Assembly (NCBI GenBank): GCA_964016885.1
Contig: OZ024749.1
Location: forward strand, 54,498,001 to 54,562,000
Direction of reading: 5' to 3'
DNA: 64,000 nucleotides
DNA from: Eledone cirrhosa
Taxonomy: Eukaryota
Position 1 is the first letter of the stretch. Each line of letters opens with the position of its first letter. A program made the translations under genes and the position numbers. Under the pieces are notes generated by a model that was not told where the DNA came from, made no database searches, and saw nothing but the letters and a program-made list of their open reading frames with translations. Positions 24,401 through 30,400 of this stretch are shown piece after piece.

Positions 24401-27400
24401 AAGCACAGCTGTGTCGTATATGTTTGAATAGTGAATGGTATATAGGTGAAGTAGATCATGTATAAGTTTCAAAAGGTTTTAATAAAGTTGTCAATCATGG
24501 TGGGTCTGTCCACAGGGGGTGGTTGGTGGTCTTGGGAGGTGGAAAAGTGGATTTCTCAGAAGCAGATATTTTCTAAAATGAGGACAAGATGTAAATATTT
24601 CACTCTTTAAATTCAGATATTCATTGGAAAATTTCAGTTTTTGAAGAATTATAAATTGGTTTTGATTATATTTTAACAAAATCTGAAGTTTCAGCTTCCT
24701 TAGAGTGACACTTACCACACCTTCCCTCATCTTCCAGCAGAGTTTTAAAATTCAGAAAACAAAATTATATTTATATTTACATCTCTCTCTCTTGCACTCT
24801 CTCTCTCTCTCTCATATATATATATATGAGAGAAAGAGAGGGGTATACCTATCTGTATATCCACTCTACATCTCCCCACACATTGAGTACTCCCATTAGT
24901 GGTCTCCCCAATCTCTTACCACTGCAGACTCTCATACTTTTTTTTCCTTTTTTCATAAGAATTTTCAAAATATATGAGAAATAGAACAGAATGGGTGTTA
25001 CTCTTACCCCACCACCCTACATCACCTCCCTACCCCACCTCTCTAAATCACCTCCCTACTCCACCACCCTCCATCACCTCCCTACCACACCTCTCTGATT
25101 AACATCCGTGGGTGTTTCAGGTTAGAAAAATCTACCCAGGCAAACAAGATGTGAGAGAAAATCAAACTAAATAAAACAGGTGGAAGTCCAAGTAAGGAAA
25201 GGTGTGGTGTAGGGAGGGTGGGGTATAGTTGCTCCCTATTTACCTTGTACCCACACAACTATCAACTCTGACTAAAAAAATCCACATTGGCTGCGACATT
25301 CCTCTGTTTGTTTGTAACAAAATTGTTCTTCCTATTTTTTGTATTTTCTTTCATTTTGATATGAAAAGCATACAAACCCACACACATACATACATTCATG
25401 CAAACCCACACACAGACATACATATATATATACAAACCCACACATACACACATATATATACAAACCCACACATATATATATAAACCCACACACATATATG
25501 CACATACATTTAGAAATGGGTGCATAGGAATGTATGCGTGTGTATGTGTATATGTATGTATGCGTGTGAAAGAGAGACGTTTTTCTTTTTTGTGTGGTGG
25601 TGCAGAGGGGGGAGAAATCAAGGAAAAAAGTATATATATATGTGTGTATGTGTGTGTGTTTACATTTATATGTGTGTGAAAGAGATAAAATAGAGAGAGG
25701 GAGAGAGTTGATTACAATATAGAACACCTTAACTGACCAAACCACCTCCAAATGTAATAATTCAATAGAGATTGACTTCTATCTTCTTCTCCTTCTCCCC
25801 CTTCTCCTTCTCCCCCTCCCCACCCCCTCAGATCTGGTTTAGTCAAGTTTGGCCTGGTTCAGACTTTGCCATTTCTTCTCTTTATTTTTGCAACTCAACT
25901 GAATAGTGGGTTGGCAGGTTGGTTGGTATATGTGTCAATGACATTCCTTCCCCCACCTCATCCACAAACTAAATTATCTACATGAACAAGAAAAAGAAAA
26001 GAAAAAAATATTCCCAGAAGATTTCAAAGAGAACAACTACAACAACAACAACAACAACAACAAAACAATTGATCCTACCTCAGTATTCATATCTACACAC
26101 AATCACTTTACCTACCTGAGGAGTTCCACATTTAGTTTTAAAATGTCTCTGAAAAGGAAAGGAAATTTCATACTTTCATCACATCATATCTACATTTTAA
26201 ATAATATCTTATCTTGAAATTTGGAAAAGGAACAAAAAAAAAAATCACCCAGCAAAATCTTAACATATTCTTGGGATCTTTTCCTACCTGGCACCAAATA
26301 TACTGGATGAAAGATAATTAACAATGGTTCGTTAGCACAAACCAAGCTACACCTGGCTGGATTACATATCATATACTACCTTACCACCAACAAAAATTCT
26401 CAGGGAGAATTTTATTAGGATTTATATTTTTTTTTTTGTTCTTTTTTTCTCCTATCATGAATTCATCTGGGTTTATTTGGAGATGTGAATATTTTTTTGA
26501 GGATATTTCTCAGATACAAGGATTACTGCAATATTTGGAAAGTTAATATATATATAACATATCCTTGAATATTTGTAACAAAATATTTCTTTTATTTTTC
26601 TATTTATTAAATGTCTGTATTGTTATTTAAACAGCCTTGAGAGCTGTAAACAAATTCTCACACTCACACACACGCACACACACTCACATACACACATGTG
26701 GGTACATGTGAACTCATGTTTACCTATAATGTTGGCAAAACTTATTCTTATATTCATATAGCAAACAATATTCTGTATATTTATTTTTGTTAGAATTTAC
26801 TGCAGTCGATGTTTATATCGAAGCAAATAATATGGGTAAACTGTTTAGTAATTTAACGGCGTCAGCAAGAAATGTTGGTGTACCATGTCGAACATACAAA
26901 TGGCAGGACTTAAATATACAATTATATAAAGACAGCAATACACATCAGTATATATGATGATAGTTACATTAGAAATTCACTAAGATTTGATCAATTCATT
27001 TGAACAAATATATATCATAGAAATTTTGTATATATATATATATAACCCCACCCCAAAAATATTTTCAAGTCTTGTCAGCAAGGATTTAAAATTACCAGAT
27101 CCGTTAAAATGTTAGGCCAAACTGATATTCTCTTCAGCATGGATGGTAACTATGAACTACATAAACATTCAGAAGAAAGTAGGTTCAATTTTGATGTGTC
27201 TCAGCAATCAAGTTCTTCAGAAACATCTTATTCACCTATGTCACCAGGTAAAGATTTACCACACGCTATCATCGGAAAATATGGAATACTCACAGACTCA
27301 GAACATATACATGATAAACTTTACAAAGAACTTAATGAGTTCTTAAGGAACAAAAAGCTTCAGTCAACTAGTTGCCATGATATCCCTAATGAAATAGAAA

Positions 27401-30400
27401 AGGAAAATAATTCTCTAATGACTAGAAGGCTTTCTAGGTCCCTAGACAATATGGTTGACATTACGGCAATCCGGAAAATTCTAGAGAAAACCATGCAGAA
27501 AAGGATAAATCAAACCATCGTTTCGAATCAAGATGAAGTTGACGCTCTAAGAACAATTGACAGTGTTTTGGAAGAGGAAGAAAAAAAGGATTTGCTTATA
27601 TTGTCACCTTCACGCTTGAAAAACACTAAATCCATCTTTATAAACAATTCAACCAACGAAAGAGTTAATGCAGGAAGTTCTTCATCAAATGAACCAGACA
27701 TATCTCCAAAACCTAAGCAGGGAACAGCTATGTCTCAAACTGCTCAACGGAATTCATTTCATGAAGATGCTAAAACCGAGGAAATGAAGCATAAGTTCTA
27801 TCAAAATAAAAGCTCAAAGTTCTTCCGGAAAAATTCTCCAGAAGATTCTAAAACACCACATTACACTCACAGATCAAAATCAGATGTTTCACATCACAGC
27901 TCAAACCACACTGTAAGTTTAGATGAGTTTGACTCCTCATTGAAAATCGATAACAAAAATGTAAATACTTTTCAAAAGTCACCGTCTTTTGAAGACCAGA
28001 GACAAAAGAAGTTGATTGCCAATAAAGATTTTTTTGTCAACAATAAATTTGTGGCCGAACACCGGAAAAATGATTTCCATGTTTCAAACGGTCAGCAGGA
28101 TTTTCAGAATATGCGAAACAGATATTCACAAAAAGCACAACTATTACCATCAACACATTCAGAAATTTATCTGCAACACAGTTACATAGATGGACAATAT
28201 ATTCCAGCCAATTCTATGATTGGACAATATCACCCCTCCAATTCCATAACCGGACAATATTATCCAGCAAATTCCATGATTGGACGGTCTACATCTTTCT
28301 CAAAAGATGTCCAAGTTCAACACGTACCTCTAGTCTGGCGAAGGTATTCTCCACTGACTTCTAAATCAGGGTGGACAGCATCTGAAGAAAATCTCAACTC
28401 AAGTGCCAATATTAAACTGATAGTAAGAAACTGCCAAGTAGATAAACATAAGGCTGGCAGAGTAATGTTAGGTAAGCTTATTAGATCAATATTTTGTGGC
28501 TGTTCCTCCTCTCCTCATCATCATCATCATCATTAACAACATCCAGTGGTCACTTCAAAGGGTTCTGTAGTCGCTGTTGTTTTTACTTTTTCATTCTATT
28601 TTCTTACATAAAATTATGAGAGGTTTAAATTTAAATATTATTCCTAACATGTCCTAAGAGGTGACTAAAATGGTTGGAGATCCATCCAGTTGTAAATACT
28701 GTTGCCTCAGAACATCCCATCCAACCCATGCCAGTATGACAGTGTAGACATAAAAGCAATGATGAGGAACACTTAAAAAAAAAAAAGGAATATTTGTGTC
28801 ATAAAAACCAAACCGGTCGAAGGCAGGGTGATATCAAAGGAGTATTTATACCATAAAACTAAAGTGGTCGAAGGCAGGGTGATATCAAAGGAGTATTTAT
28901 ACCATAAAACTAAAGTGGTCGAAGGCAAGGTGATATCAAAGGAGTATTTATACCATAAAACTAAAGTGGTCGAAGGCAAGGTGATATCAAAGGAGTATTA
29001 ATGCCATAAAACTAAACCAGTCTGAGACAGGCTGATATCTAAAATGGTTTCAAACACTTGTTGTTGCTGTTGTCATTCTGTAATTACAGTCAGTGTTATT
29101 ATTGTTTTATTTCTACTTTAGGTAGCCCAATTGTACAAGAAGTAAGAGAGGGGGCCTTACCAACAGCTCATGGTGACGGACTTCATGAAGGAGAAGAGGA
29201 TAAAACAGCGACATTCACTGTTGATTCTTCGGGATTAAAGGGAGACTTATTTATTCAAGTTGATGGTAAGAAGAATTAATAAATTAATAAATGACTATCT
29301 TCAAATTCATTAACACAACTAGAGAACTGTCTCTGTCTGTATCTCTGTATCTACCTGTGTGTGTCTGCATGTGTTTCTAGGTGTATATGCCTGTGTGTCT
29401 TTATGTGTGTGTATCTGTATGTGTGTGCCTCTCTGTGTCTGTGTGTCTGCACATGCTTGTGTGCGTGTCTATGTATGTATGTCTATGTGCATGTCTGTAT
29501 GTGCATATACATAACAGGTTATAAGCATCTGTTTGTGTATTAACATATGTGGGTGTGTGTGTGAATACTTAACATAGTTTATAATTGTGTGCATTTGTGT
29601 ATTAGCGTGTGTGTGTGTGTGTGTGATTATGTACATACTTGACATAGTTTTTAAATGTGTGTGTGTGTGTACATCTGTGCAGACTTAATATATTTTTTAA
29701 GTGTCTAAGTTTGTGTGTGTATATTTAACAGTTTGCAAACATCTGTATGTGTGAATATGTGTGTGTGAATATGTATGTGTGTGTGTATTTAACATAGTTC
29801 ATAGATATCTGTGTGTATTTATGTGCATGTTTATGTGTGTGTATACTTAACAGTTTATAAACATGTGTTAGCATGTCATTGTGTCTATGTGCCACTGTGT
29901 CTGTGTGTGTGTGTGTCTATGTGCCACTGTGTCTGTGTGTGTGTCTGTGTGCCACTGTGTCTGTGTGTGTGTGTGTCTATGTGCCACTGTGTCTGTGTGT
30001 GTGTGTGTCTATGTGCCACTGTGTCTGTGTGTGTGTGTGTCTATGTGCCACTGTGTCTGTGTGTGTGTGTGTCTATGTGCCACCGTGTCTGTGTGTGTGT
30101 CTATGTGCCACTGTGTCTGTGTGTGTGTGTGTCTATGTGCCACTGTGTCTATGTGCCACTGTGTCTATGTGCCACTGTGTCTGTGTGCCACTGTGTCTGT
30201 GTGTGTGTGTGTCTATGTGCCACTGTGTCTGTGTGCCACTGTGTCTGTGTGCCACTGTGTCTGTGTGTATCTGTCTTGTAACAGAGTTTACTCCATTGAA
30301 AGTATTTGGACCAAACCCTCAGTTCCAGGTTGGGCATTGGCTGCATCAAGCTCATCAATCTGGGAAATAAAACCTGTAAAAGAAATGGGCATTGAGCCTC

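What the first reader, a model, noticed from the sequence alone, without database searches (positions are those of the whole stretch)
27109..28471. Hidden 1.36-kb exon predicts a filamin isoform with a new disordered N-terminus
Seen: the only long non-TE, non-microsatellite ORF in the window lies inside the 20.4-kb filamin intron, 650 bp before exon 29122. It has a strong phase-1 donor (TTAG|gtaagc, 28471) in frame with GSPIVQEV. Exons 8736 and 29122 already join without it (EIP-GSP), so it is optional. An in-frame TAA at 27043 and only weak phase-1 acceptors favour an alternative first exon. Inference: an internal promoter yields a ~984-aa protein (454 novel aa + C-terminal Ig repeats) lacking the upstream repeats and any actin-binding domain. 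Established: Drosophila cheerio makes a short C-terminal filamin from an internal promoter.
Basis: partly seen in the sequence, partly recalled or inferred. Interest (0 to 1): 0.75.

Follow-up and report, generated by a model that had tools for sequence, protein, structure and literature searches.

The report
Hidden exon gives short filamin-2 isoform
A 454-codon exon hidden in a 20-kb intron of a filamin gene is spliced onto the gene's last exons and is conserved in related animals; it likely starts a short filamin that would carry a new, unnamed helical module in place of its actin-binding end.

Summary
The ORF (ATG 27109, donor 28471) is single-copy, has no transposon or Pfam match, and joins exon 29122 in frame to give 984 aa. 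One contig of a spliced public run (X4) bridges 28471>29122. Another X4 contig runs unspliced from 26347 across the upstream stop and the candidate acceptors, as expected of a first exon. Three clusters of unnamed homologues keep the whole ORF and end in G-K-(stop/W) exactly at the donor.

Two corrections. (1) The N-terminus is not merely disordered: residues 49-165 are 55-84% identical in the homologues (10-28% elsewhere in the distant ones) and are predicted helical, with no family match. (2) The host is not cheerio-like. It has a probable third CH domain and lacks the repeat-24 end, while the canonical filamin lies on another contig, so it is likely a Jitterbug/FLN-2 (type 2) filamin.

Short filamins lacking the actin-binding domain are known; one with its own conserved N-terminal module was not found in the papers searched. 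Start site, translation and function are untested.

The parts
26347..27108 (+). Transcribed stretch upstream of the ATG, likely 5' leader of the alternative first exon (true start unknown); holds 14 upstream ATGs
   Evidence: X4 contig 25 covers 26347-28159 without joint or loose end; upstream ATGs counted
27043..27045 (+). In-frame TAA upstream of the ORF
27109..28471 (+). Coding part of the hidden exon: 454 codons + 1 nt, phase-1 donor
   Evidence: joint 28471>29122 in X4; homologues P0001-P0005
27253..27603 (+). Conserved core, aa 49-165: short hairpin plus three or four predicted helices; no family match
   Evidence: 55-84% identity in homologues; 61 of 99 columns shared by three rows lie here, p 3e-18; models; Pfam none over cut-off
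28191..28285 (+). Threefold 30-nt (10-aa) in-frame repeat; largely a gap in the homologues
28408..28431 (+). Short conserved motif N-I-K-L-[IV]-[VL]-x-N (aa 434-441), strand-like, 13 residues before the splice junction
   Evidence: alignment; alternating hydrophobicity
28472..29121 (+). 650-nt GT..AG intron removed in the short isoform
   Evidence: table 5; present unspliced in X1-X3
28472..28536 (+). Read-through of the ORF past the donor to TAA (475-aa product if unspliced)
8563..8736 (+). Upstream constitutive exon whose donor joins 29122 in the long form
   Evidence: Pfam Filamin; its 3' end is the loose end before 29120 in X4
29122..29265 (+). First shared exon: last strand of the preceding Ig repeat, then the start of the fifth-last repeat
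31007..35586 (+). Eight further shared exons (31007-31132, 31481-31627, 31817-31924, 32243-32431, 32690-32971, 33988-34137, 34578-34745, 35309-35586) completing five Ig repeats and a 43-aa tail
   Evidence: join 29265>31007 seen as a loose end in X4

Best explanation
The ORF is a real exon, spliced 28471>29122, that likely serves as the first exon of a transcript from an inferred internal promoter in a probable Jitterbug/FLN-2-type (type 2) filamin gene, and would give a 984-aa protein predicted to work as an actin-independent adaptor. Shown: the splice, the open frame, single copy, conservation of the ORF, and the content of the product (454 new residues, one leftover Ig strand, five Ig repeats, a 43-aa tail). 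Inferred: (a) the promoter lies upstream of 27109 inside the intron; (b) the protein is made; (c) it has lost the CH domains and roughly 17-18 upstream Ig repeats, so it cannot bind actin by the usual route; (d) the five retained repeats keep binding tails of membrane proteins, as reported for the distal repeats of a placozoan type 2 filamin and of human filamins with Deg/ENaC channels; (e) the conserved amphipathic core (aa 49-165) folds on binding an unknown partner and so gives the repeats a new anchor, at the end of a ~270-aa flexible Ser/Lys/Asn-rich tether. Steps (d) and (e) are untested.
For: Splice: X4 contig 27 has 336 nt on the exon side and 32 nt on exon 29122, GT..AG, skips 650; 0 such contigs in X1-X3 (1 of 4 runs). 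X4 behaves as RNA, since its loose ends at 29120 and 29266 are the neighbouring exons. First-exon reading: X4 contig 25 bridges 26347-28159 unspliced, across the in-frame stop and all candidate acceptors; phase-1 acceptors before the core are weak; P0001 begins at the same M-L-G-Q and keeps the first 48 residues at 52%. Coding constraint: three clusters of homologues at 67%, 35% and 30-31% identity keep an open frame of 411-436 aa; the core is 84%, 62% and 55-56% identical against 10-28% in the other segments of the distant ones; all five end in I-G-K then stop (4) or W (1) at the donor position, which fits G|GTAAGT (inferred from protein); P0002 finds only this exon in G000. GC3 0.31 equals that of the shared exons. 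Type 2: CH1 and CH2 by Pfam; a third CH-like segment follows at once and aligns to CH2 above 1000 of 1000 shuffles; the C11 locus scores 124 bits against FLNA CH1 versus 66 for this gene, and its last exon hits the filamin A/B/C domains 1v05, 2eed and 3cnk at E 1e-23 to 1e-25, whereas this gene's last exon hits 1v05 only at E 0.002. Precedent: isoforms without the actin-binding domain in jbug, fln-2 and cher; channel binding by distal repeats.
Against: The junction rests on one contig of one run, from the same study as the three DNA-like runs; no single contig spans ATG to junction (contigs 25 and 27 overlap by 28 nt); X4 also holds an unspliced intron-exon contig (28978-29128), so contig 25 could be pre-mRNA. 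Fourteen upstream ATGs in 26347-27108 would hinder translation if the cap lies at or before 26347. No protein of 796-2270 aa carrying this sequence was found (0 of 6170 candidates, 0 of 349), so no database entry shows the joined isoform. The DNA and gene context of the homologues were not seen, so their place inside a filamin intron is not shown. The third CH domain is weak: no Pfam or PDB hit for its separate exons and phmmer E 0.01 against CH2; no tree with Jbug or FLN-2 was built. The core's model is poor (pTM 0.22, mean pLDDT 61).
Confidence: 0.78

Rival explanations
1. The ORF is an internal cassette exon spliced between 8736 and 29122 through a weak phase-1 acceptor (27083, 27116 or 27248), inserting a 410-460-aa spacer into the full-length filamin.
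For: Both flanking junctions are phase 1, so inclusion would keep the frame; the acceptor at 27248 lies just before the conserved core; type 2 filamins are described with long intervening sequences and usually skipped exons (PMC3143143).
Against: These acceptors score 2.1-3.6 bits; X4 contig 25 runs unbroken across all three; P0001 conserves the start M-L-G-Q and the 48 residues before the core.
Confidence: 0.08
2. The ORF is mainly a free-standing single-exon gene nested in the intron (475 aa, stop 28536), and the splice to 29122 is occasional leakage.
For: The frame stays open 21 codons beyond the donor; all homologues are on record as stand-alone ORFs of 411-436 aa; no fused form was found.
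Against: Similarity ends exactly at the donor: four homologue sequences stop two codons after it and the tails of the window and P0002 do not match; no AATAAA or ATTAAA in 28472-29121; the splice is seen; stand-alone records are what a gene caller gives for an exon on a DNA contig (inference).
Confidence: 0.06
3. The RNA is a by-product (pre-mRNA, stepwise removal of the long intron, or an untranslated transcript damped by upstream ORFs) and the protein is not made in this species.
For: One contig only; an unspliced intron contig in the same run; 14 upstream ATGs.
Against: An open frame of over 400 codons with a 55-84% identical core in three sequence clusters, and in-frame indels only, needs selection on the protein.
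Confidence: 0.06
4. The ORF is a transposon or retrogene remnant captured by the intron.
For: The same intron holds a retroelement remnant.
Against: One match in 3.0 Gb with either query; no Pfam family over cut-off; no parent gene in G000; only 2 hits among 1.84 billion representatives, both full-length homologues.
Confidence: 0.02

Closest known systems
Drosophila Jitterbug short isoforms Jbug-PC and Jbug-PI (bioRxiv 10.1101/2020.10.13.337626)
   Same: Host gene with three CH domains; shorter isoforms lack them; isoforms differ in expression and location.
   Different: The paper describes PC and PI as consisting exclusively of Ig repeats (4 and 16). Here five C-terminal repeats follow 454 unique residues with a conserved core.
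C. elegans FLN-2C/D and other CH-less FLN-2 isoforms (PMC3143143, PMC9115679, PMC12966323)
   Same: Type 2 filamin; alternative transcription starts give isoforms without the actin-binding domain; last repeat is not a dimerization domain.
   Different: Those isoforms are described as Ig repeats only and are far longer (2851-3128 aa); no isoform-specific N-terminal module is described in the passages read.
Drosophila Cheerio FLN90 (PMC5173320)
   Same: Similar size; C-terminal repeats only; works as an actin-independent scaffold at the synapse. A fair model for how the short form may work.
   Different: Type 1 filamin, whose counterpart here is the C11 locus; FLN90 is described as the C-terminal portion of FLN240, without a large unique N-terminus. 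The passages read give a separate 3-kb transcript, not a mapped promoter.
Trichoplax filamin-2 binding Deg/ENaC channels (bioRxiv 10.1101/2022.06.28.497943)
   Same: Defines type 2 filamins by three tandem CH domains; the last two repeats bound TadNaC2 and TadNaC10 tails in yeast two-hybrid. These repeats are retained in the short form.
   Different: Full-length protein of another phylum; binding by this gene's repeats is untested.

Membership tests
Filamin (host gene) | N-terminal CH actin-binding domain | tested here: met
   Pfam CH E 4e-12 and 3.6e-9 in upstream exons; best PDB hits filamin A/B
Filamin (host gene) | Tandem Filamin/ABP280 Ig repeats | tested here: met
   5 of 5 exons tested hit PF00630 over cut-off; further repeat exons upstream
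Type 2 filamin (Jitterbug/FLN-2) | Three tandem CH domains | tested here: inconclusive
   A 94-aa segment directly after CH2 aligns to it (score 38; shuffles mean 8.4, max 32, 0 of 1000 reach it; phmmer E 0.0095), but its separate exons hit neither Pfam CH nor PDB CH domains. Probable, not proven.
Type 2 filamin (Jitterbug/FLN-2) | Last repeat is not a repeat-24 dimerization domain (as described for FLN-2) | tested here: met
   Last exon hits 1v05 at only E 0.0019 and is followed by a 43-aa tail; the C11 gene's last exon hits it at E 3e-25 and stops there. That 1v05, 2eed and 3cnk are repeat 24 is for 2eed and recalled for the other two.
Type 2 filamin (Jitterbug/FLN-2) | Clade with Jbug and FLN-2 in a tree | not tested
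   No Jbug or FLN-2 sequence was on hand from a tool
Type 1 filamin (Cheerio/FLNA) | High similarity to FLNA actin-binding domain and a terminal dimerization repeat | tested here: not met
   CH1 66 bits against 124 bits for the C11 locus; no repeat-24-like end
Alternative first exon | Spliced at its 3' end to a shared exon | tested here: met
   Joint 28471>29122, one contig, X4
Alternative first exon | No upstream splice partner; 5' side is contiguous leader | tested here: inconclusive
   Contig unspliced back to 26347; contigs show presence, not absence, and it may be pre-mRNA
Alternative first exon | Own capped start and promoter | not testable with these tools
   Only contigs were available; needs CAGE or 5' RACE
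Known short filamin isoforms (FLN90, Jbug-PC/PI, FLN-2C/D) | Lack the actin-binding domain | tested here: met
   Predicted product starts in the intron, about 100 kb downstream of CH1
Known short filamin isoforms (FLN90, Jbug-PC/PI, FLN-2C/D) | Made of Ig repeats only | tested here: not met
   454 of 984 residues are unique and non-Ig
Transposable element | Multi-copy, with element domains | tested here: not met
   Single match; no domains

The most novel reading that the evidence does not exclude
An internal promoter converts a type 2 filamin into a different kind of adaptor by swapping its actin-binding domain for an undescribed, lineage-restricted helical binding module that has been kept at 55-84% identity while the rest of the exon drifted; the module ties the channel- and receptor-binding last five repeats to a non-actin anchor, and the conserved strand-like motif near the junction gates those repeats by pairing with an Ig domain in the same chain.
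Probability: 0.35. Interest if true: 0.68.

Novelty: new variant of a known kind. Interest (0 to 1): 0.52.

Why it matters
Short filamins without the actin-binding domain have their own jobs (for example FLN90 as a postsynaptic scaffold), but those described in the papers read are plain truncations. Here the short form gains a large exon of its own, with a conserved module that matches nothing in Pfam or the PDB and has only two hits among 1.84 billion protein representatives. If translated, it is an unannotated isoform and a new interaction module in the little-studied type 2 filamins, and it shows a route by which a scaffold can be retargeted through one intronic exon. It is directly testable with a junction RT-PCR, an isoform-specific antibody and a pull-down. 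It does not overturn a principle: alternative first exons and short filamins are well known.

Tried and rejected
No RNA holder listed: the run search listed 4 holders, none on record as RNA; X4 is taken as RNA only from its spliced joins. Contig depth (5.6 for the new junction, about 300-357 for the contigs of the 8736>29122 form) hints at a minor form but is no measure of level and was not used. X4 has no cover at 25600-26346 and 28475-28599, and none of its 7 laid records joins exon 8736 to the ORF; contigs cannot show a start or an absence, so these were not counted as evidence. A second lay-down on the donor of exon 8736 gave no result, so that donor's other partners remain unexamined.

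Self-pairing of the core (two copies, aa 45-170): no verdict, scores 0.14 and 0.19 against a mark of 0.32, controls not folded. Fold search with the low-confidence core model: 0 matches, uninformative. Profile against PDB sequences: 2 hits at E 0.74-0.77, chance. Pfam HSR hit E 0.004-0.04, under cut-off and in 1 of 6 members: rejected. The ESM Atlas gave no answer. Metagenome scan: 0 relatives among 589 pattern matches. Longer-protein searches: nothing. Rfam on 8700-36500: 0. The sigma-70 promoter scan is bacterial and irrelevant here, and at chance level; no TATAAA in 25600-26500. A 14-3-3-like motif is present only in P0003-P0005, and an R/K-R/K-x-S site at aa 106-109 in the window, P0001 and P0002 but not in P0003-P0005: not claimed. 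Earlier notes of this scan: 4 look-ups, nothing shown. dN/dS could not be computed because no homologue DNA was available.
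Full report
1. The observation. The + frame 27046-28536 is open for 496 codons, the longest of 80 ORFs of 100 aa or more in the window; simulated sequence of the same composition reaches 219 at most in 500 trials. I rebuilt 16 filamin exons from 288 to 35586; they read through without the ORF, and the ORF joined at 28471 to exon 29122 gives 984 aa. The donor ranks 2nd of 128 GT sites nearby; phase-1 acceptors ahead of the conserved part are weak. 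The ORF has one match in the 3.0-Gb genome and no Pfam family over cut-off.

2. It is spliced. Four public runs hold the stretch, all as contigs and of unrecorded kind. X1-X3 run through the donor unspliced, like DNA. X4 carries exon-to-exon joins and so behaves as RNA: its loose ends at 29120 and 29266 are the ends of exons 8736 and 31007. One X4 contig joins 28471 to 29122 (GT..AG, 650 skipped, 336 and 32 nt on the two sides). Another covers 26347-28159 without a break, across the in-frame stop and all candidate acceptors. Limits: one contig, one run, one study; the two contigs overlap by only 28 nt; an unspliced intron-exon contig is present too; contigs show neither start nor level.

3. 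It is conserved. A search at similar length found 3 proteins among 4127 candidates, and an exhaustive HMMER search found 2 among 1.84 billion representatives; cluster look-up added two close variants of P0003. None carries a name or organism. Overall identity is 67%, 35% and 30-31%. Residues 49-165 are 84%, 62% and 55-56% identical, against 10-28% for the other segments in the distant homologues; 61 of the 99 positions shared by the window, P0002 and P0003 fall in this quarter of the exon (Fisher p 3e-18, on a core chosen by eye from the same alignment). All five homologues end in I-G-K followed by stop or W at the position of the donor, which is what G|GTAAGT would give when read through (inferred from protein). 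A short motif N-I-K-L-[IV]-[VL]-x-N is kept just before it. P0002 finds only this exon in G000. Their genomic context could not be seen, and no longer protein carrying the sequence was found.

4. Structure. AlphaFold2 on six sequences gives mean pLDDT 39.8, with 370 of 454 residues under 50, so most of the exon is likely disordered; the confident parts are helices in the core. The core alone reaches mean pLDDT 61 but pTM 0.22: helices without a fixed packing. Two of the helices are amphipathic. This fits a module that folds on binding a partner (inference). No family or fold match was found.

5. Which filamin. Upstream of the window the gene starts with a CH exon at G000:C9:54421139. After CH2 comes a third CH-like segment that aligns to CH2 better than all 1000 shuffles, though its single exons are not recognised by Pfam or PDB searches. 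A rough profile count gives some 13-14 repeats upstream of the window plus 4 in it before the junction (not fully reconstructed). The gene ends in a 43-aa tail. A different locus, C11 at 40.46-40.54 Mb, is much closer to human filamins at CH1 (124 against 66 bits) and ends in a domain matching 1v05, 2eed and 3cnk at E 1e-23 or better, which this gene's last exon does not. Three CH domains define type 2 filamins (Jitterbug, FLN-2), and FLN-2 lacks the dimerization repeat. The host is therefore likely type 2, and cheerio is the wrong paralogue. No tree was built.

6. How it likely works. An internal promoter (inferred) drives a first exon of at least 1.4 kb and perhaps over 2.1 kb. The product is the core, a ~270-aa flexible tether, one leftover Ig strand, five Ig repeats and the tail. 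It lacks the CH domains, through which FLN-2 binds F-actin and VHA-8. It keeps the distal repeats, which in Trichoplax filamin-2 (last two) and human filamins (last five) bind Deg/ENaC channel tails. By analogy with FLN90, an actin-independent scaffold, I read it as an adaptor that holds membrane-protein tails at a site chosen by the new core. The partner is unknown. Fourteen upstream ATGs mean either that the cap lies nearer than 26347 or that translation is damped. Rivals (cassette exon, nested gene, by-product RNA, transposon) are weighed in their sections and together get about 0.22.

7. What is known. CH-less isoforms are described for jbug (PC, PI), fln-2 (C, D and others) and cher (FLN90), as Ig repeats only. 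Three searches for a description of this exon found none: filamin + cephalopod + isoform (30 papers, 20 listed, none on this by title or abstract start), jitterbug + filamin + mollusc (1 paper), filamin + octopus + alternative promoter (0). What I saw: 10.1101/2020.10.13.337626, abstract, introduction, start of methods and passages; PMC3143143, PMC9115679, PMC5173320 and 10.1101/2022.06.28.497943, passages; PMC12966323, abstract and outline. No supplements were read; isoform tables there, or current FlyBase and WormBase models, might show short type 2 isoforms with unique N-termini and would lower the novelty.

8. Verdict. Observation confirmed; interpretation right in its main line, wrong on the paralogue and incomplete on disorder. 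New variant of a known kind; interest 0.52.

Noticed in passing
window 27247: A second in-frame phase-1 donor (CAG|GTAAAG) scores as high as 28471; it would give a 46-aa N-terminus without the core. The X4 contig runs through it unspliced.
   Followed up: partly
window 41479-45188, - strand: Exons of a carboxyl transferase gene (Pfam Carboxyl_trans, E 2e-14 and 1e-10) face the filamin gene tail to tail; probably propionyl-CoA carboxylase beta (name recalled).
   Followed up: partly
window 12831-15181 (+) and 45248-46312 (-): Broken non-LTR retroelement remnants (RVT_1 weak; zf-RVT).
   Followed up: partly
window 28784-29016 and 19588-20177: Minisatellites: 51 nt x 4.5 inside the 650-nt intron and 57 nt x about 10 in the long intron.
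   Followed up: no
G000:C2:297.73 Mb, C11:32.45-32.50 Mb, C9:13.79-13.82 Mb: Further loci with several Filamin repeats besides this gene and the canonical C11:40.5 Mb filamin; the C2 locus has a CH exon next to a 1303-codon open frame. Not classified.
   Followed up: no
G000:C18:5.28-9.81 Mb: Seven CH-domain exon matches, six of them with near-equal score and frame length, suggesting a locally multiplied gene.
   Followed up: no
G000:C9:54472082 and 54472562: Two nearby segments share the same Ig-repeat motif, a possible duplicated or mutually exclusive exon of this filamin gene.
   Followed up: no
window 28978-29128: X4 holds an unspliced intron-exon contig at the shared acceptor: pre-mRNA or intron retention.
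   Followed up: no
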